Source of the DNA: a virus
Taxonomy: Duplodnaviria; Heunggongvirae; Uroviricota; Caudoviricetes
Virus record (IMG/VR): IMGVR_UViG_3300042885_000900
Direction: 5' to 3' (one strand)
Length of the DNA stretch: 54,999 bases
The notes beneath the pieces were generated by a model. The model was given only the letters and a program-made list of their open reading frames with translations, made no database searches and was not told the origin of the DNA. Positions 2,945-54,999 of this stretch are shown here, piece by piece. The translations under genes were made by a program, and so were the position numbers. Position 1 is the first letter of the stretch, and each line of letters starts with the position of its first letter.

Positions 2945-2982
2945 GGTACAAAGATAATACTTTATTTCATTATACCAAACTT
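2945..2982 (-). promoter_or_regulatory. Bacteroidota-type housekeeping promoter (TTTG...TATCTTTG)
   Basis: Matches the -33/-7 consensus; same motif near 3680, 6650, 7015, 7930, 12495, 25030, 34510, 36580, 53340 (-) and 27700, 47320 (+). Confidence 0.75.
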
Positions 2983-3089
2983 TATTCTTCTTTTTTTTCT
3001 GTTGAATCATCCTCAACTAAAACATTTTTCAATCCGTAGGTTACTCCCAATATCGGTGAGTAATCCATAACCAATTCTTCTCTAATCAT
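2982..3089 (-). CDS. Small hypothetical protein (35 aa)
   Basis: Hand-translated ORF MIREELVMDYS... Confidence 0.5.
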   Translation of the reverse strand: MIREELVMDYSPILGVTYGLKNVLVEDDSTEKKEE

Positions 3090-3097
3090 AATAATTA

Positions 3098-3208
3098 TTA
3101 TTTTTTTGTTATTTTATCAACATATCCTTTACCTAGAACTACCAATACCACTAAACATACCAATAATCCCCCCATTATAACAATTATTTGTTCTCCTGTA
3201 TAATCCAT
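3098..3208 (-). CDS. Small membrane protein
   Basis: One hydrophobic segment; start re-called to MDYTGEQ. Confidence 0.55.
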   Translation of the reverse strand: MDYTGEQIIVIMGGLLVCLVVLVVLGKGYVDKITKK

Positions 3209-3224
3209 ATCTTTAATTTGTTTT

Positions 3225-3455
3225 TTACCAATTATTGGTGTTATAAATACAAAATTGTGAACCCACTTGGGCGTTTCTCCAATCATTCGGGTATAGATAA
3301 AACAATTTATCGTCTCCGGTACATTCATTTCTAATTACAACAGAATAATCTCGTACTCTATTACTAATTACTAACCCACAATTACAACTCACATATCCAT
3401 CAACAGAACAAGATAAGAATAGTGGGATGACCATAATTAAAATCAATTTTTTCAT
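3225..3455 (-). CDS. Putative Cys-rich lipoprotein
   Basis: Signal peptide with FLSC lipobox. Confidence 0.75.
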   Translation of the reverse strand: MKKLILIMVIPLFLSCSVDGYVSCNCGLVISNRVRDYSVVIRNECTGDDKLFYLYPNDWRNAQVGSQFCIYNTNNW

Positions 3456-3475
3456 AAATTATTTCTTTTAAACTT

Positions 3476-3661
3476 CTAATTCCAATCTTCATATTCTACA
3501 CTACCATCATCATCCCAAGCGTCTTCCTCTTCATCTTCATCCTTTAATCCACACTCACCTCTAAAATCTAAGTAAGGTATCATATCATCTTCGTGACCAT
3601 TCTTTTGATGTTTCTCCCAAGATTCTCTACATTTTTCTTCTGTCATGATTTCTTGTTTCAT
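3476..3661 (-). CDS. Acidic hypothetical protein
   Basis: ORF directly downstream of a TAnnTTTG promoter. Confidence 0.7.
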   Translation of the reverse strand: MKQEIMTEEKCRESWEKHQKNGHEDDMIPYLDFRGECGLKDEDEEEDAWDDDGSVEYEDWN

Positions 3662-3983
3662 AATCCTTTTATTTGATACAAAGGTAATACATTATTTCAT
3701 TCTGCCAAATAAAAACCAAAAAAAAATCCACCTTTTTTTGAAGATGGATTTTAAAATATTTTTTTACTTAAATATATATCATACCATCGACTTCCAAGTT
3801 GTATCTCTACCCTCAGTTCCCGCTATCGTAAGTAATATGTTTAAAGTTTGCATTTTTTGTGTTATTGTAATTTCTTATAAATATACGCTAATTTACCAAA
3901 GTGTCAAGTGATTTTAAAATTAATTTTTTAATTAATCTCAATTTCAAGATATTTATAGTAAATAAACTTTTAAAAATTCAATT

Positions 3984-4148
3984 ATGAATAAAGAACAAAT
4001 TTTTGGTGTTATTCGCCACGTATTCACTGCCATTGGTGGTATTGTCATTGCACAAGGGTATATATCTGATAGTATGTACACTGAATTATCCGGAGCGGTA
4101 TTAACATTAACTGGTGTAATTTGGTCAATTGTTTCTAAAAAACAGTAG
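3984..4148 (+). CDS. Small two-TM protein, putative holin (54 aa, MNKEQIFGVIRH...)
   Basis: Hand-translated; two hydrophobic helices; TATTTAT upstream and terminator downstream. Confidence 0.75.
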   Translation: MNKEQIFGVIRHVFTAIGGIVIAQGYISDSMYTELSGAVLTLTGVIWSIVSKKQ

Positions 4149-4159
4149 TATAATAAACA

Positions 4160-4192
4160 GAAAAAAGGTTAGAGAAATCTAACCTTTTTTTT
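4160..4192. terminator. Bidirectional intrinsic terminator
   Basis: AAAAAAGGTTAGA-GAAA-TCTAACCTTTTTT between convergent units. Confidence 0.8.
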
Positions 4193-4210
4193 ATGCCTAT
4201 AAGTTAAATA

Positions 4211-4426
4211 AAAAAAGTTTAACAACCCCGCCCTCGGGTCGTAGCGGGCAACTTGAGAATCACTTCTCGTGGGAATTCCGGAATTGGTTGTGTTCCTCAC
4301 CGGCGTACCAGTCCTTATTTATCCTTTACCGTATTTCTACGGTGCTACTGTTGGGAGGTCACCCCTATCAACACAACTAGTCCATTAGTTTTTTAGAGTA
4401 TGGACACCCCGGTTGTTAAACTTTTT
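4211..4426 (-). ncRNA. Candidate multi-helix ncRNA (about 215 nt)
   Basis: 16-bp terminal helix; GAAA, TACG and GTGA tetraloop hairpins when read on the minus strand. Confidence 0.65.
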
Positions 4427-4486
4427 AATTTACATTCACCGTATTTCTACGGCGATAATCGCCGGTATCTCACCGTATTAATAAAT

Positions 4487-4638
4487 AAAAACAGACAATG
4501 AGGATTCTCCGATATTTCAGTCTTAGGGGACTAGACGGGCATCATACCCGTGTTTACCCTCGGAGGTCTCTTGGTTTGGTTGATTACTCCGAACCTCACC
4601 TCTACACTACCACTGACGTAAGTTATAGGTCTGTTTTT
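4487..4638 (-). ncRNA. Candidate closed structured RNA (about 150 nt)
   Basis: AAAAACAGAC/GTCTGTTTTT terminal helix, GC-enriched interior, no ORF. Confidence 0.5.
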
Positions 4639-4793
4639 AATTCTTTGTAAAACAACAGACGGCTTTGAAGTACATCCACACCAACAATTATGACCGACTT
4701 CACCTTATGTGGAAGTTTAGTTTTACAATATCTATCAAGATTTACCCCAGTCTTTAGGTCGCTATTAATACCTTTAGTCCTTATTCTCAAATT

Positions 4794-4854
4794 AATTAAT
4801 ACAGGAATCGAACCTGCGTCTGGGCCGTCACCCCGTAGTACCACTCTACTAATT
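4794..4854 (-). ncRNA. Miniature tRNA-like RNA
   Basis: AATTAGT/ATTAATT acceptor-like stem, GCAGG-TTCGATT-CCTGT T arm, reduced D arm. Confidence 0.4.
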
Positions 4855-4923
4855 TTTCATTTTACCTTCCGGAGATAACTTTCGTCATGTCACCTTATCC
4901 AACCTTATATGGATAAATCTTTT

Positions 4924-5033
4924 GCCCTTCCAGTGGGAATCGAACCCACATACTCTTAATACATTCTTGGGATGGTTACCGGAGGGAGATGTATTCGTCT
5001 CTGTGTTTTGCTCTTTTTAAACTACAGAAGGAT
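4924..5033 (-). ncRNA. tRNA-like RNA with expanded anticodon region
   Basis: CCTTC/GAAGG acceptor, GTGGG-TTCGATT-CCCAC T arm, AATACAT/ATGTATT stem enclosing 24 nt. Confidence 0.55.
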
Positions 5034-5037
5034 TTTG

Positions 5038-5106
5038 CACGCCATCAAAGAATCGAACTCTGTCCTATGGGTTTGGAATCCATTTGGCTACCTTAGCCTA
5101 TGACGC
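5038..5106 (-). tRNA. tRNA-Trp(CCA)
   Basis: ATGGA-TTCCAAA-CCCAT; compact D arm. Confidence 0.88.
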
Positions 5107-5115
5107 ATTTTATTG

Positions 5116-5198
5116 AGTTCAGGGTCGGATTCGAACCGACGAGGACTTTCGTCATTGGTTTTGCAGACCAATCTAATCAACCACTCTAGCACCTGAAC
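5116..5198 (-). tRNA. tRNA-Cys(GCA) with long variable arm
   Basis: TTGGT-CTGCAAA-ACCAA; U73; variable hairpin GAC-GAAA-GTC. Confidence 0.88.
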
Positions 5199-5259
5199 AT
5201 TTAAAGTAAAATATAATTTACAAATACACCCATTTTTGTAAATTATATTTAATGTTAAT

Positions 5260-5505
5260 TTAATATCCTATTTCATCTTTAACCTCCCATTGTTTATCAA
5301 TGGGGATTCTTTCAATCTTTTCCACCGGAACAAATCCGTCAAATCCTTTGTCTTTAACATCTTCAAAATGTTCTATGGTGTCCAATTGGAACCCAAACTT
5401 ATATCTCATGTATTGGAACTTTTCACCATCCCAATAAGCGACGTGGTTGTTTCTACAAAAACCATTATACCACCCCTCAACCATTTCATTTTTTGGTATC
5501 ATCAT
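5260..5505 (-). CDS. Hypothetical protein
   Basis: ORF; start re-called to MMIPK because the upstream part lies in an RNA hairpin. Confidence 0.7.
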   Translation of the reverse strand: MMIPKNEMVEGWYNGFCRNNHVAYWDGEKFQYMRYKFGFQLDTIEHFEDVKDKGFDGFVPVEKIERIPIDKQWEVKDEIGY

Positions 5506-5614
5506 TTCTATTTTTATATTAGCACCCTCTTTCTTACTCAAGTGGATTGATTCAGCCACGCGTATTGTAAGAGTAGGGTCACGTAGTTACTGGATGAACC
5601 CAAATAACTTACTT

Positions 5615-5705
5615 GTTGAGAACTCATTTGGGTTGTAGGATATTGTCTTCCTCTTCATCCATTATTTCTTATGGCACTAATTCCTTTCTCAAGGGAACAA
5701 CACAT
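5615..5705 (-). ncRNA. Repeated structured RNA motif, copy 1
   Basis: Conserved 5' and 3' blocks shared with 10776-10861; predicted pseudoknot. Confidence 0.65.
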
Positions 5706-5886
5706 CTACCATTTCTGATAGTATCTTTATGTAAATTTAATTATGGTAAGCAGGGCGCCTGGTATTATCTTCTAGAAGACAGGGACAAACTTATACTCTT
5801 ACCTTTTGGACTATGCCTAGCCACTTTCCCATTTCATTTATAATTAATTTACAAAGGTTCGATGTTTAACCTATTTTATTAGTCCA

Positions 5887-6108
5887 TTAATTAAAAGTTA
5901 TCTGACATTTAGACGCCTTTAACTTTTTATCTAAACTTTTTTTAGCACCAACCTCAATATACCTACGGTTACTATAGTACTTGTGCATTCTCTCACAATG
6001 GGTTGAACAACTTTCTAATCCAACAATTATTAAGAATGAGATGATTGCGATAACATAACTTCTTAAACTACAGACATAAGGTCCGTACAAATCAAACATT
6101 TTTTTCAT
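5887..6108 (-). CDS. Hypothetical membrane or lipoprotein
   Basis: Hydrophobic segment followed by LESC. Confidence 0.6.
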   Translation of the reverse strand: MKKMFDLYGPYVCSLRSYVIAIISFLIIVGLESCSTHCERMHKYYSNRRYIEVGAKKSLDKKLKASKCQITFN

Positions 6109-6119
6109 ATTTTTTATTT

Positions 6120-6305
6120 TTACAAAGATACAATTACATTTCTACTTTTGAGAATTTTTCTTAAAAAAATTAATCTTTCTCTATGATTAGTATATTCATC
6201 CTCATCATTAGCTTTATGACCTCTAAATATTGATTCGGTTATCTCACAATCCAATTTAATAATTTCGGTTATAATCTCCTCCGTGGTTAATTTACTTTTT
6301 TTCAT
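6120..6305 (-). CDS. Hypothetical protein
   Basis: ORF in operon-like array. Confidence 0.7.
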   Translation of the reverse strand: MKKSKLTTEEIITEIIKLDCEITESIFRGHKANDEDEYTNHRERLIFLRKILKSRNVIVSL

Positions 6306-6625
6306 ATTTTCTCAAATTCGTCTTCAAATCCGTACCATTCATCACCATTTTCATCTTCGTACCAACATTTGTATTCTCGCTCGTACCGATTCCAATCAAT
6401 TCTTGTTAATTCAACTTCATTTCCCCCATCTTTGTTTTTAACCACTTCACCCACTTGGAATGCTTGTGGTGCGTAATTGTCGATTGTTTTACTTTGAACA
6501 ATTAAATCCCCAACACTTTTAACCTCATCGGTTTGGATGTTGGTGTAATTTCCTCCGGATGATAATTTCCACCCTTTACTATACAACCAAATCGTAAAAT
6601 CTAAAATCTCTTTTTCTAATAACAT
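6302..6625 (-). CDS. Hypothetical protein
   Basis: Start re-called to MLLEKE, downstream of the promoter motif. Confidence 0.7.
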   Translation of the reverse strand: MLLEKEILDFTIWLYSKGWKLSSGGNYTNIQTDEVKSVGDLIVQSKTIDNYAPQAFQVGEVVKNKDGGNEVELTRIDWNRYEREYKCWYEDENGDEWYGFEDEFEKI

Positions 6626-6657
6626 AATACATCTGTTTTGTGAGGACAAAGATAATA

Positions 6658-6990
6658 CTATTTTTTACCCAATCCTACAATTGTAACACTTTTAATCTTT
6701 TTTTTACCTTTTTTAACCTTTTTTTCAACTTTTGGTTGTGAAGCTCTATTTTGTAACGTCAATACCTTTCTAGTTACTTTACACATTTTTTCTAAAATCT
6801 CTAATGATTCAAGATTCTTAAAGAAAACAGTTAGAAGTTCTTCCGATTCGTCTGAAGAATAAATATTATCACCAATCATTCTTGGTTTTAATAATTTATT
6901 AAAACTAATAAAGGGTGTTTGAGTAATATTCTCAATTCCCGCACCCATAGACAATTCTCCCAATCCCGCAACAACAATACTTTTTTTCAT
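6658..6990 (-). CDS. Hypothetical protein with basic C-terminus
   Basis: Start re-called to MKKSIVV. Confidence 0.7.
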   Translation of the reverse strand: MKKSIVVAGLGELSMGAGIENITQTPFISFNKLLKPRMIGDNIYSSDESEELLTVFFKNLESLEILEKMCKVTRKVLTLQNRASQPKVEKKVKKGKKKIKSVTIVGLGKK

Positions 6991-7047
6991 AATTTTTATA
7001 TATTTAATTTCGACAAAGATAATACAATTTTTTAAACTACCAAACAA

Positions 7048-7443
7048 TTATTCATTTTTTTTCACTATTTCTATTAATTTTTTAAGACATTCTAGTTGTG
7101 CTTGTTCGTAAGAATTTTTATAGCCTATAAAGTTAATAAACATTTTACCCTTACCTAAATTTTTAGTTATTAACCAATCATACTTTTTAAATGTATCGTC
7201 ATCAGATTCTGTAGGAGATGTAAAATATCCATACTTCTCTCTAAACCATCTAAATGCTTGTGAGAATGTTGGTGCTGAGATATAATCATCAATTTCATTA
7301 TTCACATTTCTCATTTTACTATTTATAACCTCTTCTAATATTTCACTTAATTGGTCATTTTTATAGTAAGAAAAACAAGGTTCATCAAACCCTAATTCTT
7401 TTAAAGATAAAGCCAAGGTGTAAGGTATAAATTCTTTTTTCAT
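7048..7443 (-). CDS. Hypothetical protein, paralog of 7446-7802
   Basis: Shared PY.LAL.LKELGFDEPC, SAPT..QAFRWFR.KY and LECLKKLIEIVK blocks. Confidence 0.85.
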   Translation of the reverse strand: MKKEFIPYTLALSLKELGFDEPCFSYYKNDQLSEILEEVINSKMRNVNNEIDDYISAPTFSQAFRWFREKYGYFTSPTESDDDTFKKYDWLITKNLGKGKMFINFIGYKNSYEQAQLECLKKLIEIVKKNE

Positions 7444-7445
7444 AA

Positions 7446-7802
7446 CTATTTTTGTTTTACTATTTCTATTAATTTTTTTAAACATTCAAGTTCTGCTTCT
7501 TCGTGGGTAGTATATTGTTCCATTGAGTCAAAAACAATATTGTCTAATTCATCGTAGATTGGGTTATTATAAAATATCCTATCATTTTCTTCAACACAAG
7601 TTGATGGTGTTTGAGAATATAAATCATACTTCTGTCTAAACCATCTAAATGCTTGTTGATAAGTTGGTGCAGATATCACACAATGTGGCATTTCTTTTAT
7701 CATTAAAAATCCTCCTCCATCTCTATAACCCATACAAGGTTCATCAAATCCTAATTCTTTTAAAGCTAATGCGATTTCATAAGGAACAAAAAGACTTTCC
7801 AT
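7446..7802 (-). CDS. Hypothetical protein, paralog of 7048-7443
   Basis: Same shared blocks; start probably MESLFVPY. Confidence 0.85.
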   Translation of the reverse strand: MESLFVPYEIALALKELGFDEPCMGYRDGGGFLMIKEMPHCVISAPTYQQAFRWFRQKYDLYSQTPSTCVEENDRIFYNNPIYDELDNIVFDSMEQYTTHEEAELECLKKLIEIVKQK

Positions 7803-25093: not shown

Positions 25094-26968
25094 TTATTCA
25101 GATTTTATCTCTTCAAATTCAACATCAGACACATCAATATCAGATTCTGAAACATCACCCTCATTAACACTTGAGTATAAATCTTGAGATATTTGTTGGA
25201 ACTTTTGAGATAGTTCTTCCGACAATACCTTAACATTTTCAATATCTCTACTAGAATGAGCTTCTTTCAACTTATCCATTGATTCAGTTATTGTTGTTTT
25301 TTGTTCTTCAGAAATTTTATCTTCCAAATCCGTCAAAGATTTACCTGTTTGGAAAATCAGGTTGTCAGCAGAATTTAATGTATCCACATCCTCTTTAAGT
25401 TTTTTGTCCGATTCAGCATTTTCTTCAGCCTCCAATTTCATTCTTTCAATTTCCTCTTGAGATAATCCTGAAGATGCCTCAATTCTGATTGATTGTGTTT
25501 TGTTTGTTGCTTTATCAACAGCGGAAACATTAATAATACCATTCGCGTCAATATCAAAAATCACTTCAATTTGAGGAGTTCCTCTCATTGCCGGTGGTAA
25601 CCCATCCAAGTGGAATCTACCGATTGTTCTATTGTCTTTTGCCATTGGTCTCTCACCTTGTAATACATGAATTTCAACAGATGGTTGATTATCAACAGCC
25701 GTTGAGAATACTTGAGATTTTTTAGTTGGGATTGTGGTGTTAGATTCAATTAGACGAGTTAAAACTCCCCCCATTGTTTCAATACCTAATGAAAGAGGTG
25801 TAACATCTAACAATAATACATCTTTCACATCACCAGCTAACACACCACCCTGAATAGCTGCTCCTAAAGCAACAACCTCATCCGGATTAACACCTTTTGA
25901 TGGTTCTTTACCGAAGAACTTTTTAACAGCTTCCTGTATCGCAGGAATTCTAGTAGAACCTCCAACAAGAATAACCTCATCAATATCGGTAATCTTTAAT
26001 TTAGCATTTTTCAAAGCTGATTTACACGGAGCAATAGTTCGTTTAATCAAATCACTTGCAAGTTGCTCAAATTTAGACCTTGTTAATGTTTTCACCAAAT
26101 GTTTTGGTCCGGTAGCATCAGCACTTAAATAAGGTAAGTTAATCTCTGTTTGAGGAGAAGAAGATAATTCAACTTTAGCTTTTTCAGCACCTTCTCTCAA
26201 TCTTTGTAATGCCATCGGGTCTTTTGTAATGTCTAAACCATCATTATCATTTTTAAATTCATCAACTAAATAGTCAATAATGATTTGGTCGAAGTCATCA
26301 CCACCTAAATGGGTATCACCATCTGTAGATAATACTTCAAAGACACCACCACCTAATTCAAGGATGGATACATCATGCGTTCCACCACCACAGTCAAACA
26401 CAACGATTTTACTATCACCTTTTTTATCAATACCATAAGCCAATGCGGAACTTGTAGGTTCAGAGATAATTCTCAAGACATTTAATCCGGCAATTTGACC
26501 TGCCTCAATTGTTGCTTGTCTTTGAGAGTCATTAAAGTAAGCTGGTACGGTGATAACCGCGTCAGTGATAGATTCTCCAACATAATCTTCAGCAGTTTGT
26601 TTCATTTTTTGTAAAATGATTGCTGAAATTTCTTGTGGAGAGTATTCTCTATCGTCAATTTTAACTCTTGGAGTGTTTCCACTACCTTTAACCACAGAAT
26701 ACGAAACTTTAGATAGTTCATCTACGATACTATCGTAATTAGCCCCCATGAATCGTTTAATTGATGATATAGTTTTTGTTGGGTTGGTTACAGCCTGTCT
26801 TTTTGCTGGGTCACCAACTTTTCTTTCTCCATCAGTTAAGAAAGCCACAATTGAAGGTGTTGTTCTTTTACCTTCGCTATTTGCGATAATTATGGGTTCG
26901 CCGCCCTCCATAATGGCACAACACGAGTTTGTTGTCCCTAAATCAATTCCTAGAACTTTTTTGCTCAT
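25094..26968 (-). CDS. dnaK: Hsp70 chaperone DnaK
   Basis: [40 protein letters not shown]. Confidence 0.98.
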
Positions 26969-39621: not shown

Positions 39622-41082
39622 TTAATTTGATAATGGTGCTTTAATTGTTGGGTGTGATTGATAATTCTCTATTTCAAATTCACTTATTTCAAATCCTTGT
39701 AAATTAGTATCCAACGGTCCTACTCCACATTCTCCACTTTGTGTATTCCAGAATTCTGTATTGATGTTTAGTGTTGGTAATGGATAAGGTTCTCTCGTTC
39801 TTTCAGGAACACTTCCTTGGTGTCTATCAGATAGAAATATATGTTTACGTGAATCAGATGTTAACTTATTATACGTATCCATCGCATATTCATTTTCTTT
39901 ATTACCCCATAATTCAAATCTTTCTTCAATAGTAAAATATCTTCCAATTTGTTCCTTAGCAGCATCAATATGATTTGAATACAAATGACAATCACCGAGA
40001 TTTCCAATTAACTCATCCGGAACCATATTAACTTCTTTTGCAATTATTTCTAATAACAATCCATAAGAAGCAATGTTGAATGGTAAACCTAAGAATGTAT
40101 CTACTGAACGTTGATTCCACATTAAAGAGATTGCTCTGGATGGTATTGTATCTTTGTACTTTTCATAATCCATTCCAATATCTCCATACTTTTTAATATA
40201 CAAATCAACTCTTTCTTCTCTATTTAACTCTCTTGTATAAACTTGAAATCCATAATGACAAGGTGGAAGAACCATTTGGTCTAATTCTCCAACATTCCAA
40301 GCATTAACCATTAATCGTCTTGAGTCTGGATTTGTTTTAAGGTCGTTGATTAGGTTTTGGATTTGGTCTTTCCCACCAATATATTTGTCAAACTTATCAT
40401 CAATTACTTTAGCAACTTGAATTGAATAAAAAGATTTTTCATCGTAACCAAGTGTTATATTTTTATAGTAAACTTTTTTACCTTCATCTTCATCACTGTA
40501 AAGAGATTGGTCAGAATCCTGTATTGGTGTTGTTAACCACTCAGTACCATTAGCAAATGAATGTAAATCACTCCACTTAACAGTCCATCCATTATCAGTT
40601 TTGTGTAAAAAACCTGTTTGTTTGGTGTCTTTCCATCCACCCCAGTTACGCCATTGTAATCCGTATATTTTTCCTAACTCACCCCACTTGTTAGCAAACT
40701 CATCATCTGTTTTGATTTTGTTGATGAATTCTTCTTGTGATAAATGAGAAGAAATCTGTTTCATTGATTTTTCAGAAAAATCCTTACCCCCTTTAGAAAT
40801 ATAATTCTTATAAGCATCACCATTCCAAATATGACAATTATTATCAACCAAATACTTAATATTTGTATCACCTCGAAGAAACCAAAGAAGTTCTGTTACG
40901 ATTGTTTTGAATGGCATCTTCTTTGTAGTAAGTAAAGGAAAACCATCTTTCATATTGTGACGTATTTGTCTACCGAATACTGAGATTGTTCCTGTACCTG
41001 TTCTATCCTGCTTTGTTACTCCATTATCAAGAATGTCTTGGAGAAGTGCTTGGTAATCTTTATCTAGTTTATTCATTTTCAT
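39622..41082 (-). CDS. thyA: Thymidylate synthase with large insertions
   Basis: DRTGTGT, ELLWFLRGDTN, LPPCH, QRSVDTFLGLPFNIASY, HLYSNH. Confidence 0.96.
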   Translation of the reverse strand: MKMNKLDKDYQALLQDILDNGVTKQDRTGTGTISVFGRQIRHNMKDGFPLLTTKKMPFKTIVTELLWFLRGDTNIKYLVDNNCHIWNGDAYKNYISKGGKDFSEKSMKQISSHLSQEEFINKIKTDDEFANKWGELGKIYGLQWRNWGGWKDTKQTGFLHKTDNGWTVKWSDLHSFANGTEWLTTPIQDSDQSLYSDEDEGKKVYYKNITLGYDEKSFYSIQVAKVIDDKFDKYIGGKDQIQNLINDLKTNPDSRRLMVNAWNVGELDQMVLPPCHYGFQVYTRELNREERVDLYIKKYGDIGMDYEKYKDTIPSRAISLMWNQRSVDTFLGLPFNIASYGLLLEIIAKEVNMVPDELIGNLGDCHLYSNHIDAAKEQIGRYFTIEERFELWGNKENEYAMDTYNKLTSDSRKHIFLSDRHQGSVPERTREPYPLPTLNINTEFWNTQSGECGVGPLDTNLQGFEISEFEIENYQSHPTIKAPLSN

Positions 41083-43590: not shown

Positions 43591-43807
43591 ATCCTCCCTC
43601 TAATTCAAAGTCTTCACCTTCGTCAACCTTTTTATTGACATATTCTCTTATTTCTTTCATATATTGTAAGAATCCCAATCTTAACCGGTGGAATTCTTCA
43701 TCTTTGATTTCATCCCAATGACTATAGTGTTCAAAACAATAGTCAATACCCTCTTCTTCCATTCTATATTGGACTGATTGCCAATATTCTAATTCGTCTT
43801 CTGTCAT
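43577..43807 (-). CDS. Hypothetical protein
   Basis: ORF. Confidence 0.75.
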   Translation of the reverse strand: MTEDELEYWQSVQYRMEEEGIDYCFEHYSHWDEIKDEEFHRLRLGFLQYMKEIREYVNKKVDEGEDFELEGGFDGE

Positions 43808-43971
43808 TTTGTTTCTTTTATAATTAATCGGACAATACCACCCACTTTATTAAATTTATCCGCCCATTCTACATGAGTTTTTGGTTCACCAAATAATCCA
43901 AGGTATATTTTATCCGCCAAAGGTAAAACATTTGAATAATCTTTCCAACTAATTTCTGATTTTTTATTCAT
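43804..43971 (-). CDS. Small hypothetical protein (55 aa)
   Basis: Hand-translated MNKKSEISWK... Confidence 0.65.
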   Translation of the reverse strand: MNKKSEISWKDYSNVLPLADKIYLGLFGEPKTHVEWADKFNKVGGIVRLIIKETK

Positions 43972-43972
43972 T

Positions 43973-44584
43973 TTATTGTATTTCTTGTTTATTTGTTAGG
44001 TATAACTCCTCAACATCTTTTTCCAAGTAAAATTGTAATTGGTTATTGGTTGTTGTAATCTCTTTATATCGTTCCTCCGCCATATTAATGTGCTCATAAA
44101 CATGACGCTTTGTTGTTGTTATCCCCTCTTTGTATTGTTCATCCACCTGTTTTTGTAGACGCCAACCGAACTCCTGTGTTGATTTTACACCCACTTTGTA
44201 GTGTTCCTCCACCATTGATGTCCAATTAACGGAAATAGAACCAGTTGTTGCGACCCCCACTTTGTAGTGTTCCTCCACCCTTTCCATCAATATTTCTTTC
44301 CACTTCTTCGATTCTGTTGTTATCCCCACTTTGTAGTGTTCCTCCACCCATATCTTTGTGATGTCCTTAATTTGTTGATTAGACATACCAAACATATTTT
44401 CAAAAAACTTCCAAATTTCACTATAACTCACATAGACATACCCATTTTTTTTATTATGTTGCAGAATACATTTCCCATTTTTCATATGAAAGATATAATC
44501 AGGATATTCTTTCATTATAAATGGTTCCATATGATTGTAGTTATCGTTTAACCACTTGATACAAAGTTTTTCTATTTTAGTCAT
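43973..44584 (-). CDS. Repeat-spacer array protein 1
   Basis: About 75-aa domain followed by VEEHYKVG.TTT repeats with unique 10-11-aa spacers. Confidence 0.85.
   Translation of the reverse strand: MTKIEKLCIKWLNDNYNHMEPFIMKEYPDYIFHMKNGKCILQHNKKNGYVYVSYSEIWKFFENMFGMSNQQIKDITKIWVEEHYKVGITTESKKWKEILMERVEEHYKVGVATTGSISVNWTSMVEEHYKVGVKSTQEFGWRLQKQVDEQYKEGITTTKRHVYEHINMAEERYKEITTTNNQLQFYLEKDVEELYLTNKQEIQ
44001..44348. repeat. CRISPR-geometry array inside an ORF
   Basis: 36-bp repeats at 44313, 44244, 44178, 44112; 33-bp degenerate copy at 44049; spacers 33, 30, 30, 30 bp. Confidence 0.85.
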
Positions 44585-45272
44585 TCTCTCGGATGTTTAA
44601 TAATTCTTGCCAATACCCATCTTCCTGTTGGTATCTTCTAACAACCTCAACCTCATCAGGGAATCCCAAAGATAGTTTTTTCTGATTTGTATTATCAGCA
44701 CTCATTATGGTTTTAAACAAATTTGTTTTAAAGGAACCGGATGTTCCTTTCATAAAAAAAATAAATTCTAATTCTGCGTTGTTCATATCTACTTTTGTTT
44801 TAATTTTTGTTGCGTTTCTAATATGGCTACACCCATCACCAAACTTGTAATGAACCCACACACCATTCCGAAAACTACTATTGTCGTTAGTTAAACTAAA
44901 CCTACTAATTATATGTGGGTTACCATATTGAGATACCTTTATTGTATCACCTAAAGTAAAAACTTCACCATCTGATAATCGTTTTACTGAATGTATTGGA
45001 TGGTATTTAGATTTATTTATATTATCCCAATCTTCATGCCCCTCATAGTAAAGATATTTTGTATCACCAAATCTTGGTGACCAATACGATATTATTTCAT
45101 AATCGTTTTCAATCACTTCTTCCCATAATTCAGGAAAATCATTAGGGTTAAACCAACTACCTTCCCAATAGAAATTATTTGTATTTTCGTTGTCTTTTTC
45201 TACTTTGGGTTCTAACACCTTACCTAACAATGGGCTTCCAGGGTAGGTTTTTATTAATTTATACTTTTTCAT
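44577..45272 (-). CDS. Hypothetical protein
   Basis: KLIKTYPGSP...VKRLSDGEVFTLGD. Confidence 0.8.
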   Translation of the reverse strand: MKKYKLIKTYPGSPLLGKVLEPKVEKDNENTNNFYWEGSWFNPNDFPELWEEVIENDYEIISYWSPRFGDTKYLYYEGHEDWDNINKSKYHPIHSVKRLSDGEVFTLGDTIKVSQYGNPHIISRFSLTNDNSSFRNGVWVHYKFGDGCSHIRNATKIKTKVDMNNAELEFIFFMKGTSGSFKTNLFKTIMSADNTNQKKLSLGFPDEVEVVRRYQQEDGYWQELLNIREND

Positions 45273-45278
45273 ATCTAA

Positions 45279-45530
45279 TTAACACACTAAATCATCTATT
45301 TTAATTCCGTGTTCGTCCAATATTTCCAAAATACCATCACCCATTGCGTCAATACCATCAAAAACATCATTATTTGTGTTCTCGGTATTTTCAAATCGTC
45401 TTTCCATGGTTTTTCTCAATTGGAGAATATCCCATATTGCCATACTTAAATCTAATGATTTGACAGCTCTTAAATGAGCTATTCTATCATCAAAATCATT
45501 TAAATCAAATTCTAAAATTGCTTTTGCCAT
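45279..45530 (-). CDS. Hypothetical protein
   Basis: MAKAILEFDL ORF. Confidence 0.8.
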   Translation of the reverse strand: MAKAILEFDLNDFDDRIAHLRAVKSLDLSMAIWDILQLRKTMERRFENTENTNNDVFDGIDAMGDGILEILDEHGIKIDDLVC

Positions 45531-45694
45531 AATTTTTTATAGTTTTTTTCATTATAATTATAAGGAATTTTTTTCTAAATTCCAACACATATCCAACCAT
45601 TCCCCACCATCGTAATTCTATTAATTTATTTAATATTAACGAGGTTATTTTTAATAAAAAAAATAAGACATTATTAATTATACCCATTTTTTTT

Positions 45695-45994
45695 CTAATC
45701 TCCGAATGTGTTAGAGTTTAATCTCCACACACTTCTTATTTTACCAATCAATTCATCAAAGTTATCACTAACATCATCTTGGGGACAACTATCACCCCAA
45801 CTTTTACCTTCCGGTGTTTTTAACCAATACTCTACTTTCATTGAGTTTGTTTTTTCATCATAGTAAATTGAGATGCTTTCTACAATTGCATCATAAATAG
45901 CTAAATGGTCACCAGGTTTACCATTACTATTACTATGTCTTGAGATACCGTAAACGCTACTGTTAAGTTCGTAAAGTTCGTAATTTGTTTTCAT
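45695..45994 (-). CDS. Hypothetical protein
   Basis: ORF. Confidence 0.75.
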   Translation of the reverse strand: MKTNYELYELNSSVYGISRHSNSNGKPGDHLAIYDAIVESISIYYDEKTNSMKVEYWLKTPEGKSWGDSCPQDDVSDNFDELIGKIRSVWRLNSNTFGD

Positions 45995-46011
45995 AATTTT
46001 TTAATTTTTGT

Positions 46012-46227
46012 TTTGTAATGTTCCTCCACCAATACGAATTCACGACCCAAAGTTTTAGACGTTGTTGTTATCCCCAATTTGTAATGTTCCTCCACCATGG
46101 TTTCGTAATCCTTAAAGAATCCGGAGTTGTTGTCGCCCCCAATTTGAAATGTTCCTCCACCGAAAAGTTACGGGGATTGGCACACACGATAGTTGTTGTC
46201 GCCCCCAATTTGAAATGTTCCTCCACC
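46012..46227. repeat. CRISPR-geometry array at the 3' end of an ORF
   Basis: Identical 36-mers GTTGTTGTCGCCCCCAATTTGAAATGTTCCTCCACC at 46192 and 46126, variant at 46061, partial copy ending 46030; spacers 30, 29, 30 bp. Confidence 0.9.
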
Positions 46228-46463
46228 CATTCCTTCGTTAATCCCTGAATTTGCGTGTAATTCATACTAAAATAGTTTTCAAAAAACGACCAAATTTCCC
46301 TATAATTGATATAAGCACGCCCATTTTTTTTATTGTAATCAAAGATAAGTTTACCATTTTTTATATAGAAAACATAATTAGGATATTCCGGTGATTCAAA
46401 TATTTCTAAATCACCGTAGTTATCGTTTAACCATTTGACACCTATTTTATTTAACTTGCTCAT
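46068..46463 (-). CDS. Repeat-spacer array protein 2 (frame broken by a 29-bp spacer)
   Basis: N-terminal domain homologous to 43973-44584; VEEHFKLGATTT repeats. Confidence 0.85.
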   Translation of the reverse strand: MSKLNKIGVKWLNDNYGDLEIFESPEYPNYVFYIKNGKLIFDYNKKNGRAYINYREIWSFFENYFSMNYTQIQGLTKEWVEEHFKLGATTTIVCANPRNFSVEEHFKLGATTTPDSLRITKPWWRNITNWG

Positions 46464-46855
46464 AATTTTTTAATCCATTTATTATCCGAGTTCAACAAAA
46501 ATTCTCCAACAAAATCTTTTCCACGATTCCATTCATCTGGGCCGATAAGCGATAATGTTAATTCTTCAGCAAAGATATATAAAAAATATGACTTTCCAAC
46601 TATTGGCTCAAAAGAAATTTTAGATTCCCAAACCATAATAGATGTATTGTACTCATCATACATTTTTTCAATCCTTTCTTTTATCTCTTGATGTTCCCTG
46701 TTGAAGACATCCATCATCTTTTTTGACGCTTCACTTCTAAACAAGGGAACATTGGGTAAATCAAAACTTTGACTACCGTTACTGGTGGGATATGTCCTTA
46801 ACTTTGCATCATACCCATCTTTTTCACTCCAAACAATTAAATCAGGTCTTTTCAA
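46460..46855 (-). CDS. DUF2452-like protein
   Basis: FEPIVGKSYFLY...LSLIGPDEW. Confidence 0.6.
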   Translation of the reverse strand: MKRPDLIVWSEKDGYDAKLRTYPTSNGSQSFDLPNVPLFRSEASKKMMDVFNREHQEIKERIEKMYDEYNTSIMVWESKISFEPIVGKSYFLYIFAEELTLSLIGPDEWNRGKDFVGEFLLNSDNKWIKKL

Positions 46856-52695: not shown

Positions 52696-53157
52696 TTATA
52701 TTTCTTCACCAAATAAATCATCTGTCCATCGTTCAGGGACAAGAACCACAATATAACCTTTTGTGACATTAACAGCGGATGTTGGTAATAAGTTATTGAT
52801 TTCTTCTAATAGTTCCTCATTTTCCTTAAAAACGATTCGTAATTTACCATCTTCAGCGGTGTCAACGATTTTATGTCTATTATTTTCCATAATAGACTTA
52901 AAATTTTCTATATCACCAAATTTATCTTCAGTTTCTTCTGGTTCAATATCCAAATCACCAGCTAAAAATCTATCGGGAACATTACTCTCACCACCACTTT
53001 TTAAATATTTGATTTCTTCGTCTGTCATTCCTTCAAGACCAACTTCATTATATAAATCCAAGATACTATCGTAATAATCGGTATCAAATTGTTCCGTCAT
53101 AATTAATTTAATAATATCTTTTAATTCAGATTCTGTTAATTTTATAATCTTTGCCAT
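52696..53157 (-). CDS. Hypothetical protein with LTE tag
   Basis: MAKIIKLTESEL...MTEQ. Confidence 0.8.
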   Translation of the reverse strand: MAKIIKLTESELKDIIKLIMTEQFDTDYYDSILDLYNEVGLEGMTDEEIKYLKSGGESNVPDRFLAGDLDIEPEETEDKFGDIENFKSIMENNRHKIVDTAEDGKLRIVFKENEELLEEINNLLPTSAVNVTKGYIVVLVPERWTDDLFGEEI

Positions 53158-53352
53158 AATTAGTTTTATCTATAAATATCTGATGAAATCATTTATCCAT
53201 TTTACAACACTTTTTTTAATGTGATATAAATTAAATGTAATAAAAAAAGTAAGGATATTAACACCATAAACCCCAATAACACAGCACTTCCGGTTATTAT
53301 AAATTTAAAAAAAGTTTCCATTTTTATTTATTTTTCACAAAGATAGTAATAA

Positions 53353-53559
53353 TTATTTACTTTGAACTAAAAAATAAACCACACCCTCTTTTTTAAAAAA
53401 TACATTTCTCGGATTATCCACACCTGGTGCTGTGCTCCATAATTCCGTTAATCCTTCTTGGTCATCCATTGGTCTCATAATCGCCTTTTTGTCAGTGAAC
53501 TTAATTGTTCTTGTAATTTCTTTTTCCATATATAAAATATAAGAAAATTTAAATAACAA
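53353..53559 (-). CDS. Small hypothetical protein
   Basis: ORF; true start probably MEKEIT. Confidence 0.6.
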   Translation of the reverse strand: MLFKFSYILYMEKEITRTIKFTDKKAIMRPMDDQEGLTELWSTAPGVDNPRNVFFKKEGVVYFLVQSK

Positions 53560-53600
53560 GTAAATTTGATTGGTTGGAAATTAATAACTATATTTGGGTT

Positions 53601-54494
53601 ATGGAAGAAATAATTAACAAACTAATAAAATATCATATAAAGGGTGTGGATACTTACACTCACAATGGCTCCACTTGGTTAATCTTTACGAAGACCAAAC
53701 AATGGGTGATAGAATTAACCGATAGTAAAACTCTATGGTATAATTATACCATAGAATTAACCGAGGGTAAAACTCTATGGTATAACTACAACTTCTTCAA
53801 TAGTGTTTTTTCTTATGCGTCGTTAGATGTCGTTCAGAACCAACACCTCATTACAAAATGGGTGGAAGATAATGTTATAAATGGGGTAAAGGAAACTTCC
53901 CACAACGCAACGATGTTCCAATCAATGAAGGTTGAAGACACCCTTGAAAATGGGGTGAAAGAAACACAATTTAATTGGCACGAAAATAAAAGTTGGGTTG
54001 AAGGCGTTATTAAAGAAGGTGTGAAGGAAACTCTCAACACCGAGTATATGCCACAGATAATGGTTGAAGACACAATTGAAAATGGTGTAAAACAAACCTT
54101 ACCTGGAGGAAAATATATTAACGATGTTGAAGAAGTTATTAAAGATGGTGTGAAAAGTTCTCATCCACTCCAATATAAATCAGAAGAGATAATTGATGAG
54201 GTGGTTAATGATGGTATAAAAGAAACCCACGATGACACATACCACCACAAAGGAAGAATTGATGGCGTTATTAAAAATGGGATAAATCATACTCAACCTC
54301 ATGTTATAAAAAATAAATATATCGTTGAAGAGGTAATTGAAGATGGTGTTAAAAGTTCTCACCCACTCCAATATATCTCAAAAGAGATAATTGGTGGTAT
54401 AATAGAAACCCACGATGACGCATATCACCACAAAGGAAGAATAGATGGCGTAATTAAGAATGGAGTTAAAGAAATAAAAAATCCCACCGGTTAG
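53601..54494 (+). CDS. Repeat-spacer array protein 3
   Basis: N-terminal domain then ten VE..I.NGVKET-type repeats with 9-11-aa spacers. Confidence 0.85.
   Translation: MEEIINKLIKYHIKGVDTYTHNGSTWLIFTKTKQWVIELTDSKTLWYNYTIELTEGKTLWYNYNFFNSVFSYASLDVVQNQHLITKWVEDNVINGVKETSHNATMFQSMKVEDTLENGVKETQFNWHENKSWVEGVIKEGVKETLNTEYMPQIMVEDTIENGVKQTLPGGKYINDVEEVIKDGVKSSHPLQYKSEEIIDEVVNDGIKETHDDTYHHKGRIDGVIKNGINHTQPHVIKNKYIVEEVIEDGVKSSHPLQYISKEIIGGIIETHDDAYHHKGRIDGVIKNGVKEIKNPTG
53861..54475. repeat. CRISPR-geometry array inside an ORF
   Basis: 36-bp repeats at 53861, 53930, 53996, 54062, 54125, 54191, 54257, 54323, 54389 (21 bp), 54440; spacers 33, 30, 30, 27, 30, 30, 30, 30, 30 bp. Confidence 0.85.
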
Positions 54495-54508
54495 GATGGG
54501 GTTATTTT

Positions 54509-54625
54509 TTACATCTCAGATTTTAATCTTCTGATAATTTCGTTGTTTTTATTAATTATTTTTAATTTCTTAACAACATTTACTCTGTTTTTTTTAGGTT
54601 TCCCTGGTTTTCTTGATTTAGACAT
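54509..54625 (-). CDS. Small basic peptide (38 aa)
   Basis: Hand-translated MSKSRKPGKPKKNR... Confidence 0.6.
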   Translation of the reverse strand: MSKSRKPGKPKKNRVNVVKKLKIINKNNEIIRRLKSEM

Positions 54626-54671
54626 AATAATAATTTATTAATAAGTATTACATACTTTAAATTTATTCAGA

Positions 54672-54998
54672 TTACCAAGTTCTACACGCCCAATATCTAG
54701 CTTTCCATCTTGGTCCTGGATTATCACAATTCATTCTCGCTCTAAAAGATTTTCTTCTTGCCGGATTATTCTTTTTTATTACCATTCTTTTACCTTTGGC
54801 AGATTTTCCTCCAAATCCAAAATTTACCTTAACAACATTTCCTTTGTCGTTCTTAACATACACTTTGAATTTTTTAACATCTCCTTGCATAATTTTACCA
54901 AGTTGAACTTTTCGTCCCTGATATTCGGCTTCCGTTAGTAAATCACCAACAACAAAGTTGGTTTCCTCAACGGAGCCATAAAAACTATCATCTATATT
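54672..54998 (-). CDS. Conserved phage protein, 5'-truncated by the window edge
   Basis: Frame open to the edge; RKSFRARMNCDNPGP...ARYWAC motif. Confidence 0.75.
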   Translation of the reverse strand, partial: NIDDSFYGSVEETNFVVGDLLTEAEYQGRKVQLGKIMQGDVKKFKVYVKNDKGNVVKVNFGFGGKSAKGKRMVIKKNNPARRKSFRARMNCDNPGPRWKARYWACRTW

Positions 54999-54999
54999 G

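What the first reader, a model, noticed from the sequence alone, without database searches (positions are those of the whole stretch)
53861..54475. Ten-repeat in-frame array with a Cas13b-like antisense repeat and an internal duplication
Seen: the reverse complement of repeat 2 is GTTTCTTTCACCCCATTTTCAAGGGTGTCTTCAACC, with a CACCC/GGGTG hairpin. Spacers 8-9 are near-copies of spacers 5-6. All nine spacer lengths are multiples of 3 with no stop, and the repeats differ largely at third codon positions. The protein is therefore under selection. Recalled, not searched: the 3' half resembles type VI-B repeats (…CATTTTGGAGGGTAATCACAAC-like). Inference: an older, domesticated array.
Basis: partly seen in the sequence, partly recalled or inferred. 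Interest (0 to 1): 0.8.

Follow-up and report, generated by a model that had tools for sequence, protein, structure and literature searches.

The report
Old translated CRISPR-like array in phage
The last two thirds of a giant lake-phage protein gene are built like a worn-down CRISPR array: in relatives the same gene still gains fresh 36-base repeats with new 30-base inserts at one end, while here the old inserts are kept by selection as pieces of protein.

Summary
Window 53861-54475 is the 3' part of one ORF (53601-54494, +, 297 aa). It has a confidently folded ~90-aa head domain and ten ~22-aa units, each a 12-aa core like VEDTIxNGVKET plus a ~10-aa linker. Units 8-10 duplicate units 5-7.

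It is not a working CRISPR array. The cores are only 67% identical at DNA level, the hairpin exists in one repeat only, there is no Rfam hit and no Cas1 in four complete relatives. Synonymous sites are saturated while the protein is conserved (omega about 0.1-0.14).

The reading "older, domesticated array" is nevertheless supported by relatives. The family has more than 1,750 homologs. Many carry 100% identical 36-nt repeats with unrelated inserts of exactly 30 nt at the head-proximal end. These inserts are foreign in composition (GC 0.48 against 0.33-0.34). The distal units are diverged and shared between phages.

The antisense repeat matches the published Flavobacterium columnare VI-B repeat at 24/36 (z 5.9) for the family consensus and 21/36 for window core 2. 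A paralogous array in this window holds an exact 30-nt copy of Flavobacterium 23S rDNA.

No protospacer was found for this family. The inserting enzyme and the protein's function are inferred or unknown. This scan has noted the same kind of array in many other phage genomes. I found no published description.

The parts
53565..53596 (+). Host-type (Bacteroidota) promoter-like elements: TTTG at 53565-53568 and TATATTTG (TAnnTTTG) at 53589-53596. The second ends 4 nt before the ATG, which implies a leaderless or nearly leaderless mRNA.
   Evidence: Sequence read. In 23 of 54 distinct homolog upstream regions TAnnTTTG ends 3-6 nt before the ATG, against 0.04 expected per window. The consensus itself is from my knowledge of Bacteroidota promoters; -33 TTG is cited in PMC8092290.
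53601..54494 (+). ORF of 297 aa (P0001): head domain plus ten-unit array. It lies on the opposite strand to almost all neighbouring genes.
   Evidence: Homologs. Same orientation and synteny in relatives.
53601..53885 (+). Head domain, aa 1-95, with fold alpha-beta4-alpha-alpha. Its last helix (aa 78-93) already contains core 1, so the domain/array junction (ITKW|VED) is part of the fold.
   Evidence: AF2 with a 100-sequence alignment gives pLDDT about 95 for aa 1-95 apart from the duplication loop. Invariant residues are listed. No known fold match: best Z is 4.9.
53709..53792 (+). 42-nt in-frame tandem duplication inside the head domain, adding 14 aa (YTIELTEGKTLWYN). It is private to this phage.
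   Evidence: Repeat family D4, 92% identical copies. Absent from the 92%-identical homolog P0002. The region has a pLDDT of only 59.
53862..54125 (+). Units 1-4. Cores at 53862-53897, 53931-53966, 53997-54032 and 54063-54098; linkers of 33, 30, 30 and 27 nt. Cores 2 and 4 are the best preserved (5 mismatches to the family's young repeat) and the most VI-B-like in antisense.
54126..54323 (+). Units 5-7, with cores at 54126, 54192 and 54258. This block is the source of the internal duplication.
54324..54491 (+). Units 8-10, a copy of units 5-7 at about 89% nt identity. Core 9 has a 15-nt deletion. The block ends in the family's conserved C-terminal unit (HDDxYHHKGR-IDGVIKNGVKEI-KNPTG).
   Evidence: The HDDxYHHKGR linker type occurs in 18 other loci, mostly 1-4 units from the end.
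54483..54510 (.). Terminator-like hairpin with T runs on both sides. It overlaps the stop codon and the last codons (NPTG).

Best explanation
The feature is the old, protein-selected part of a translated CRISPR-type cassette array in an early gene of a Flavobacterium-infecting jumbo phage.

The gene family couples a small folded head domain to a string of 66-bp units, each a 36-bp repeat plus a 30-bp insert, which equals 22 codons. In this family new units appear next to the head domain as an exact copy of the repeat plus a new 30-bp piece of compositionally foreign DNA. This is what a CRISPR spacer integrase does at a leader-repeat junction. The most likely agent is the host's Cas1-Cas2 acting in trans on a VI-B-like repeat; the phages carry no cas1.

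Only in-frame, stop-free insertions survive, because the conserved distal units must still be translated. Older units drift toward phage base composition, are shuffled, duplicated and deleted by ordinary recombination, and are kept under purifying selection as 12+10-residue peptide modules.

The window's copy is at the old extreme. It has no identical repeats, and all but one of its linker types are shared with other phages. Its latest events were a three-unit tandem duplication and a 15-bp deletion.

Shown: the ORF, the family, the polarity, identical repeats with unique 30-nt inserts in relatives, foreign GC, the VI-B similarity and purifying selection.

Inferred: the inserting enzyme, the source of the inserts, and what the protein does.
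For: - One ORF with a head domain and ten units.
- The family has 1,754 homologs and 452 clusters at 50% identity, with lengths from 96 to over 800 aa and a 22-aa modal period.
- Relatives L064, L049, L067, L068, L059, L060, L082, L087 and L042 have 100% identical 36-nt cores with unrelated linkers.
- 46 of 47 spacers flanked by near-consensus repeats are exactly 30 nt.
- Polarity from the head-proximal to the distal quartile: linker sharing with other loci rises from 29% to 63%; mismatches between flanking cores rise from 8.0 to 12.1; near-identical flanks fall from 12% to 2-3%.
- Arrays behind head domains that are at least 90% identical keep the same distal units and differ at the head end.
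- Young inserts have GC 0.476, against 0.326 for stop-free 30-mers from the phage and 0.344 from Flavobacterium chromosome. Old linkers have GC 0.363.
- The antisense family repeat matches the published F. columnare VI-B repeat at 24/36 (z 5.9). Window core 2 gives 21/36 (z 4.6) (repeats from PMC5395568).
- Flavobacterium II-C arrays have the same 36+30 geometry with some 29-nt spacers. Cas1 is present in 16 of 61 genomes.
- In-trans loading of a cas1-less VI-B array by II-C Cas1 is published (PMC8092290).
- A paralogous array in this window carries an exact 30-31-nt copy of Flavobacterium 23S rDNA between two identical repeats, and a 29-nt spacer that breaks its frame.
- The paralogs are remote homologs of P0001.
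- There is no Cas1 in four complete relatives of about 300 kb.
- Old units are under purifying selection, omega 0.10-0.14, with saturated synonymous sites.
Against: - No protospacer was found for any insert of this family. Searches covered 201-301 Flavobacterium genomes, viral contigs, metagenome contigs, rRNA operons and the phages' own contigs.
- The family repeat, with up to 3 mismatches, occurs in none of 401 Flavobacterium genomes.
- No VI-B-type array was seen in 61 genomes, so a matching host system is not identified.
- The phage region next to the first repeat is unlike the host II-C leader.
- No spacer of a length that is not a multiple of 3 occurs among 178. This needs strong selection to explain.
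- In the window itself nothing distinguishes the array from an ordinary diverged protein repeat. The case rests on relatives.
- The omega for linkers is biased downward, because pairs were chosen by amino-acid identity.
Confidence: 0.6

Rival explanations
1. It is an ordinary tandem-repeat protein. The units arose by duplication and unequal crossing-over, the cores are homogenised by gene conversion, and the linkers diversify quickly. The 36+30 geometry and the likeness to VI-B repeats are coincidence.
For: - In the window all cores are diverged, at 56-89% identity.
- A plain three-unit duplication is visible.
- Selection acts on the protein.
- No CRISPR-DR family of Rfam matches at E up to 10.
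- No protospacers were found.
- Units are reshuffled between related arrays.
Against: - Gene conversion that stops exactly at the 36-nt core edges and leaves unrelated inserts of exactly 30 nt (46 of 47) is hard to picture.
- Young inserts are compositionally foreign, about 7 SE above phage or host chromosome expectation.
- The repeat similarity to VI-B has z 5.9.
- A paralog in the same window holds a 23S rDNA fragment as an insert.
- No solenoid is predicted.
Confidence: 0.17
2. The cassettes are written or exchanged by a phage-encoded mechanism that does not use Cas proteins. Examples are recombination at the conserved 36-bp junctions between paralogs and co-infecting phages, or an unknown insertion enzyme. 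The likeness to CRISPR reflects convergence on a junction-plus-cassette design.
For: - The phages have no Cas1.
- Unit order is rearranged between close relatives.
- The window and L117 are mosaic: the array differs at 1 nt in 630, while the head domain's C-terminal third has 21 substitutions.
Against: - Recombination moves units but does not create new 30-nt sequences of foreign GC.
- The young inserts tested are singletons among 2.9 million viral contigs.
- The 23S rDNA insert in the paralog points to capture of host DNA.
Confidence: 0.13
3. The array still works at the RNA or DNA level. It could be a source of crRNA-like guides for a host Cas13b from the antisense strand, an RNA mimic that soaks up Cas proteins (Racr-like), or a decoy target for spacer integration. 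On this view the reading frame is secondary.
For: - The antisense repeats resemble VI-B repeats.
- The gene lies antisense to the bulk of phage transcription.
- Phage RNA anti-CRISPRs that mimic repeats are known (PMC10651486, listed).
Against: - The window repeats are 67% identical on average, the hairpin is present in one of nine cores, and the distal cores match VI-B at chance.
- Synonymous sites in cores are as saturated as in linkers, with pS 0.57 against 0.58, so there is no extra nucleotide-level constraint.
- The ORF is kept open through up to 24 or more units in relatives.
- No host repeat within 3 mismatches was found.
Confidence: 0.07

Closest known systems
Type VI-B (Cas13b) CRISPR arrays of Flavobacterium, loaded in trans by type II-C Cas1-Cas2 (Hoikkala et al. 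2021, PMC8092290; repeats in PMC5395568 Table 4)
   Same: 36-nt repeat and 30-nt spacer. The array has no cas1/cas2 of its own. In relatives, new units sit at one end and decayed repeats at the other. The antisense repeat is similar in sequence: 24/36 for the family consensus, and 21/36 overall with 18/21 in the 3' half for window core 2. The host genus is the same.
   Different: The array lies inside an ORF and is translated and selected as protein. The window repeats are only 67% identical and have no conserved hairpin. There is no non-coding leader; a protein domain takes its place. No cas13b or matching host repeat was found, and no protospacers were found for this family. The best sequence match is on the strand opposite to the gene.
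Cas-less or compact CRISPR arrays carried by phages and huge phages, and virus-borne mini-arrays (Al-Shayeb et al. 2020 and Medvedeva et al. 2019, both from my own knowledge and not read here)
   Same: Repeat-spacer arrays on phage genomes that lack their own adaptation genes.
   Different: Those arrays are non-coding and make guide RNAs against competitors or host genes. This one is an open reading frame under purifying selection on the amino-acid sequence.
RNA anti-CRISPRs (Racrs): solitary CRISPR-repeat mimics in phages (Camara-Wilpert et al. 2023, PMC10651486)
   Same: A phage-borne sequence that resembles the repeats of a host CRISPR system.
   Different: Racrs are non-coding near-copies of the host repeat. 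Here the likeness is 58-67%, the repeats are translated, and they come with inserts.
Tandem-repeat (solenoid or beads-on-a-string) phage proteins with variable repeat number
   Same: A periodic 22-aa unit, variable copy number between relatives, internal duplication, and protein-level selection.
   Different: In relatives the constant part is identical at DNA level while the variable part is unrelated, of exact length and of foreign composition. There is no Pfam or PHROG family and no predicted solenoid.

Membership tests
Functional CRISPR array (type VI-B) | Near-identical direct repeats within the array | tested here: not met
   Window cores have a mean pairwise identity of 67% (range 56-89%). 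The feature is met only in relatives of the gene family.
Functional CRISPR array (type VI-B) | Repeat of 36 nt and unique spacers of about 30 nt | tested here: met
   The cores are 36 nt. Linkers are 33, 30, 30, 27, 30, 30, 30 and 30 nt. They are unrelated to each other apart from the duplicated block.
Functional CRISPR array (type VI-B) | Repeat sequence of the GTTG...CAAC class with a conserved central hairpin | tested here: inconclusive
   Antisense core 2 matches the F. columnare VI-B repeat at 21/36 (z 4.6), and the family consensus at 24/36 (z 5.9). The distal cores are at chance. The hairpin is present in 1 of 9 cores. No Rfam CRISPR-DR match.
Functional CRISPR array (type VI-B) | Associated cas genes (cas13b; cas1/cas2 in cis or in trans) | tested here: not met
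   No Cas1 (PF01867) in four complete relatives. The longest ORF in the window is 624 aa and is DnaK. Cas13b was not searched with a profile. Host Flavobacterium genomes do carry II-C Cas1 (16 of 61).
Functional CRISPR array (type VI-B) | Spacers that match foreign or host protospacers | tested here: inconclusive
   The window array against 201 Flavobacterium genomes gave no exact match. The best was 37/42 nt across a linker/core boundary. Young inserts of relatives gave none either. A paralogous array in the window does carry a 23S rDNA copy.
Functional CRISPR array (type VI-B) | Non-coding, preceded by an AT-rich leader | tested here: not met
   The array lies wholly inside a 297-aa ORF under purifying selection. 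The flanking region encodes a folded domain and is unlike the host II-C leader.
Tandem-repeat (solenoid) protein | Periodic protein motif under purifying selection | tested here: met
   There are ten units with a 21-23 aa period. Omega is 0.10-0.14 against homologous units.
Tandem-repeat (solenoid) protein | Regular repeated fold in which linker residues take part | tested here: inconclusive
   AF2 with a 100-sequence alignment models the array part at pLDDT 35-60. Some cores (3, 4, 6-8) are modelled as short helices, and the linkers and the other cores have no assigned structure. The single-sequence model was poor.
Translated CRISPR-geometry cassette arrays of jumbo phages (seen repeatedly in this scan, unpublished as far as I could find) | Small head domain whose C-terminal end is the first repeat, followed by in-frame 36+30-nt units | tested here: met
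   Remote homology to the two paralogs in the window.
Translated CRISPR-geometry cassette arrays of jumbo phages (seen repeatedly in this scan, unpublished as far as I could find) | Head-proximal end with identical repeats and unique inserts; distal end decayed and shared | tested here: inconclusive
   This is met by the gene family. The window copy has only the decayed, shared kind of unit.
RNA anti-CRISPR (Racr) repeat mimic | Near-copy of a host CRISPR repeat | tested here: not met
   No copy of the family repeat within 3 mismatches in 401 Flavobacterium genomes. The best likeness to published repeats is 24/36.

The most novel reading that the evidence does not exclude
A host CRISPR spacer integrase writes captured 30-bp DNA fragments as 10-residue cassettes into phage protein genes. 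Some of these random peptides are later fixed and conserved for long periods. This locus would show that end-state: eight or more old cassettes under purifying selection and shared across many phages. That would be a new route to de novo protein sequence, and a new meeting point of CRISPR adaptation and phage protein evolution.
Probability: 0.45. Interest if true: 0.95.

Novelty: categorically new. Interest (0 to 1): 0.78.

Why it matters
If the reading is right, CRISPR-type spacer integration does more than store immune memory. In these phages it adds coding sequence, 22 codons at a time.

Young arrays elsewhere show the writing step. This locus shows what happens afterwards:
- the repeats lose their DNA identity and hairpin;
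- the inserts drift to phage base composition;
- both parts come under purifying selection as protein and are passed between phages.

That gives a datable series from foreign DNA to conserved peptide module, which makes de novo origin of protein sequence directly testable. It also warns that CRISPR finders and protein-repeat finders will each misread these loci.

If the rival reading is right, the locus is still a large phage protein family with no Pfam or PHROG match (more than 1,750 members, one gene in each of four complete ~300-kb genomes) with an unusual constant-plus-variable cassette design.

Tried and rejected
**Family and fold searches**
- Rfam, all families, E up to 10, on 53000-54999 and on 43800-46500: no CRISPR-DR or other credible hit.
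- Pfam and PHROGs on P0001: nothing above cut-off. A weak PHROG "Cas4-domain exonuclease" hit (E 0.084) over 32 residues was judged to be noise.
- tblastn against 50,697 phage records: no match.
- The single-sequence AF2 model was too poor to use.
- Fold searches of the MSA model: PDB by VIA-align gave a best Z of 4.9, and AFDB clusters and the ESM Atlas gave no convincing match. The Atlas feature search gave nothing.

**Protospacer hunts, all negative**
- Window array against 201 Flavobacterium genomes.
- L064 array against 301 genomes and L056 array against 251 genomes.
- 178 spacers against Flavobacterium rRNA operons, G000 and all fetched loci: only homologous units in other arrays were found.
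- Four young spacers in viral contigs matched only their own contigs.
- Two young spacers in metagenome contigs gave nothing.
- L064 array against its own 190-kb contig gave nothing.

**Other searches**
- Family repeat with up to 3 mismatches in 401 Flavobacterium genomes: none.
- Generic GTTG-N28-CAAC array pattern in 61 genomes: none, so no VI-B locus from a likely host could be compared.
- Literature string search for two Cas13b repeats that I recalled from memory: no paper found, so those recalled strings were not used.

**Analyses that did not help**
- dN/dS against the closest homolog (L117) was uninformative, because the arrays differ by 1 nt in 630.
- A linker that looked 100% conserved at nt level across loci (the GDWLDGD unit) turned out to have 7 DNA variants in 10 loci. 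Amino-acid conservation plus codon bias can explain this.

Full report
**1. What is at the coordinates**

Window 53861-54475 lies inside one ORF, 53601-54494 on the + strand, 297 aa, kept as P0001. Nearly all neighbouring genes are on the - strand.

The protein has a head of about 90 residues followed by ten units of 21-23 residues. Each unit is a 12-residue core (VEDNVINGVKET, VEDTLENGVKET, VEGVIKEGVKET and so on) plus a linker of about 10 residues.

At DNA level the nine full 36-nt cores are on average 67% identical (56-89%). Half of their differences fall at third codon positions (146/68/219). The linkers are 33, 30, 30, 27, 30, 30, 30 and 30 nt.

The other cores do not fold (0 to -1.9), so the hairpin is not a property of the array.

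Units 8-10 are a copy of units 5-7 at about 89% nt identity, with a 15-nt deletion in core 9.

**2. Genome context**

The window belongs to a 115-kb IMG/VR virus record estimated to be 39% complete.

- It carries 21 tRNA genes, DnaK, ClpP, a thymidylate synthase with an inserted endonuclease, a glycosyltransferase and a lysin-like protein.
- Relatives with the same local synteny reach 295-318 kb.
- Each of four complete relatives has at least one gene of this family, and one has a second, weak match elsewhere.
- Upstream of the ATG sit TTTG (53565-53568) and TATATTTG (53589-53596). The second ends 4 nt before the ATG. The TAnnTTTG box is found 3-6 nt before the ATG in 23 of 54 distinct homolog upstream regions, against 0.04 expected. 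This is the Bacteroidota promoter type (my knowledge; -33 TTG is cited in PMC8092290).
- A terminator-like hairpin overlaps the stop codon.

The gene therefore looks like a self-contained transcription unit read by the host polymerase.

**3. It is a real, large protein family**

The search for homologous proteins gave 1,754 proteins at E up to 0.001. The exhaustive representative search gave 452 clusters at 50% identity, 112 of them below 1e-30. None has a Pfam family. P0001 has no Pfam or PHROG hit and no match in cultured-phage records.

Lengths among the 76 viral loci I fetched range from 96 to 811 aa, with 22 aa as the dominant period.

AlphaFold2 with a 100-sequence alignment folds residues 1-95 with pLDDT about 95, as helix, four strands and two helices. 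The last helix (78-93) already contains core 1. The array part is modelled at pLDDT 35-60, with short helices for some cores (3, 4, 6-8) and no structure for the linkers and the other cores. No known fold matches the head domain.

The low confidence of that part means this is not strong evidence either way.

**4. Why it is not a working CRISPR array**

- The repeats are too diverged and the hairpin is not conserved.
- No Rfam CRISPR-DR family matches.
- Four complete relatives have no Cas1.
- No ORF in the window is long enough for Cas13b.
- The sequence evolves as protein. Window units compared with homologous units in other phages give, for the cores, pS 0.57 and pN 0.14 (omega 0.14). For the linkers they give pS 0.58 and pN 0.10 (omega 0.10). 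The linker value is biased downward because pairs were picked by amino-acid identity.
- Synonymous sites are as saturated in cores as in linkers, so there is no sign of an extra constraint on the nucleotide sequence.

**5. Why the "older array" reading is nevertheless supported**

The decisive evidence comes from relatives of the same gene family.

*Identical repeats with unrelated inserts.* In many relatives the units next to the head domain have 100% identical 36-nt cores and completely unrelated linkers.
- L064 has nine identical repeats before its contig ends.
- L049, L067, L068, L059, L060, L082, L087, L042 and L040 show the same pattern.
- The distal units of the same genes have diverged cores and carry linker types found in many phages.

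*Exact insert length.* A frame-independent DNA parse found 178 spacers. Of these 156 are 30 nt, 14 are 33 nt and 3 are 27 nt, and none has a length that is not a multiple of 3. Of the 47 flanked by near-consensus repeats, 46 are exactly 30 nt.

*Polarity.* From the head-proximal to the distal quartile:
- the share of linkers also found in a distinct locus rises from 29% to 63%;
- mismatches between flanking cores rise from 8.0 to 12.1;
- near-identical flanks fall from 12% to 2-3%.

*Shared distal units.* Arrays behind head domains that are at least 90% identical at nt level keep the same distal units and differ at the head end, with some internal rearrangement. This is the pattern by which CRISPR arrays of related strains differ.

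*Foreign composition.* The 26 unique inserts between repeats with at most 1 mismatch have GC 0.476. Stop-free 30-mers have GC 0.326 when drawn from the phage, 0.344 from Flavobacterium chromosome and 0.480 from rRNA operons. Old linkers are at 0.363. Young inserts are therefore compositionally foreign, and old ones have drifted toward the phage.

*The window copy is at the old extreme.* Its cores are 5-15 mismatches from the young consensus and have GC 0.28-0.42. All but one of its linker types recur in other loci. The HDDxYHHKGR type occurs in 18 loci, mostly 1-4 units from the end.

**6. The link to CRISPR**

Published Flavobacterium repeats (PMC5395568 Table 4) allowed a real test of the recalled resemblance.

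| Phage repeat (antisense) | Compared with | Ungapped match | z against shuffles |
|---|---|---|---|
| Family young consensus | F. columnare VI-B | 24/36 | 5.9 |
| Window core 2 | F. columnare VI-B | 21/36 (18/21 in 3' half) | 4.6 |
| Window core 4 | F. columnare VI-B | 20/36 | 4.2 |
| Window core 1 | F. columnare VI-B | 17/36 | 3.3 |
| Window distal cores | F. columnare VI-B | about chance | up to about 2 |
| Any of these | F. columnare II-C | about chance | mostly about 1 |

VI-B repeats are near-palindromes, so the sense strand also matches weakly (16-19/36). The orientation relative to a leader therefore cannot be settled from sequence.

Host arrays that I extracted next to Cas1 in Flavobacterium genomes have a 36-nt repeat and a 66-nt period, with up to a third of periods at 65 nt. 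Cas1 is present in 16 of 61 genomes. Hoikkala et al. showed that II-C Cas1 loads a cas1-less VI-B array in trans, although the leaders and repeats differ (PMC8092290).

The paralogous array at 46012-46236 in this window has two identical repeats flanking a 30-nt insert. That insert is an exact copy (31 nt by BLAST) of the 5' region of Flavobacterium 23S rDNA, found in 13 genomes. The next spacer is 29 nt and ends the reading frame. That gene and the one at 43973-44584 are remote homologs of P0001 with the same head-plus-units plan.

**7. What remains open**

- I found no protospacer for any insert of the NGVKET-type family, in any collection I could reach.
- No Flavobacterium genome among 401 holds the family repeat within 3 mismatches.
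- No VI-B-type array turned up in 61 genomes.
- The DNA next to the first repeat does not look like the II-C leader.

The inserting enzyme is therefore inferred from the form of the product: exact repeat copy, exact 30-nt ruler, polarity and foreign inserts. It is not demonstrated.

The direction of the ultimate origin cannot be told. A CRISPR array may have been captured and translated, or a protein repeat may have become an integration substrate.

The function of the protein is unknown. The conserved head domain and the conserved distal units suggest that these are the working parts. The need to keep the distal units in frame would explain why only in-frame, stop-free insertions persist.

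**8. Comparison and novelty**

The closest known systems are cas1-less VI-B arrays of Flavobacterium, CRISPR arrays carried by huge phages, and repeat-mimicking RNA anti-CRISPRs. The locus fails the defining tests for a functional member of each of these (see Membership tests).

My full-text searches found no description of translated repeat-spacer arrays. This scan has noted the same kind of array in many other phage genomes. One such finding was later re-checked and "part of it fell", leaving the bold reading at about even odds. I treat that as a reason for caution, not as evidence.

What this locus adds is the late stage: repeats and inserts that have lost their DNA-level identity and are kept as protein.

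**9. Verdict**

| Reading | Probability |
|---|---|
| Old, protein-selected part of a CRISPR-type cassette array | 0.60 |
| Ordinary repeat protein with coincidental geometry | 0.17 |
| Cas-independent cassette mechanism | 0.13 |
| Array still active at RNA or DNA level | 0.07 |

Noticed in passing
window 53709-53792: A 42-nt in-frame tandem duplication (14 aa, YTIELTEGKTLWYN) sits inside the conserved head domain. It is absent from the 92%-identical homolog P0002 and from all other homologs seen. AF2 confidence drops there.
   Followed up: partly
window 53601-54494 versus L117:3001-3852: Mosaic relation. The array part differs at 1 nt in 630, while the C-terminal third of the head domain has about 21 substitutions. 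This points to recent recombination at the head/array junction.
   Followed up: partly
window 54483-54510: A terminator-like hairpin overlaps the stop codon. The last codons (NPTG), which are conserved in many homologs, form one arm of the stem, so their conservation may partly reflect the terminator.
   Followed up: no
window 46012-46236 (- strand): A paralogous array has two identical 36-nt repeats around a 30-nt insert. The insert is an exact copy of Flavobacterium 23S rDNA, antisense to the rRNA on the coding strand. It is followed by a 29-nt spacer that ends the ORF. Spacers 2 and 3 have only 87-88% matches in Flavobacterium genomes.
   Followed up: partly
window 589-666 (- strand): ARAGORN calls a tRNA with a four-base anticodon (taat) within the 21-gene tRNA cluster at 140-12442. 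It could be a frameshift-suppressor-like tRNA or a miscall.
   Followed up: no
window 39622-41082 (- strand): A 486-aa ORF matches thymidylate synthase in two stretches. In relative L002 the gene is split by a NUMOD/HNH endonuclease gene. This suggests an intron or intein-type insertion.
   Followed up: no
window 25094-26968 (- strand): A DnaK (Hsp70) homolog. Its best phage matches (64-67% identity) are the 630-735-kb uncultured huge phages LR745206 and LR756501-4.
   Followed up: no
G139:C4:38432-38473 (a Flavobacterium genome) versus window 54105-54146: A 37/42-nt match that spans the linker 4/core 5 boundary (E 1.4e-7 for one genome). It is not shaped like a protospacer. It may be a related coding repeat or prophage remnant in a host genome.
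   Followed up: no
G000:C1:73138-73238 (outside the window, + strand): Two clustered weak matches (8-9 mismatches) to the VEEHFKLG-type repeat. This may be a fourth array-bearing gene in this phage.
   Followed up: no
L049, L056, L069, L087, L043: Several relatives carry two array-bearing genes or two arrays in tandem, with up to 26 repeats in one locus.
   Followed up: no
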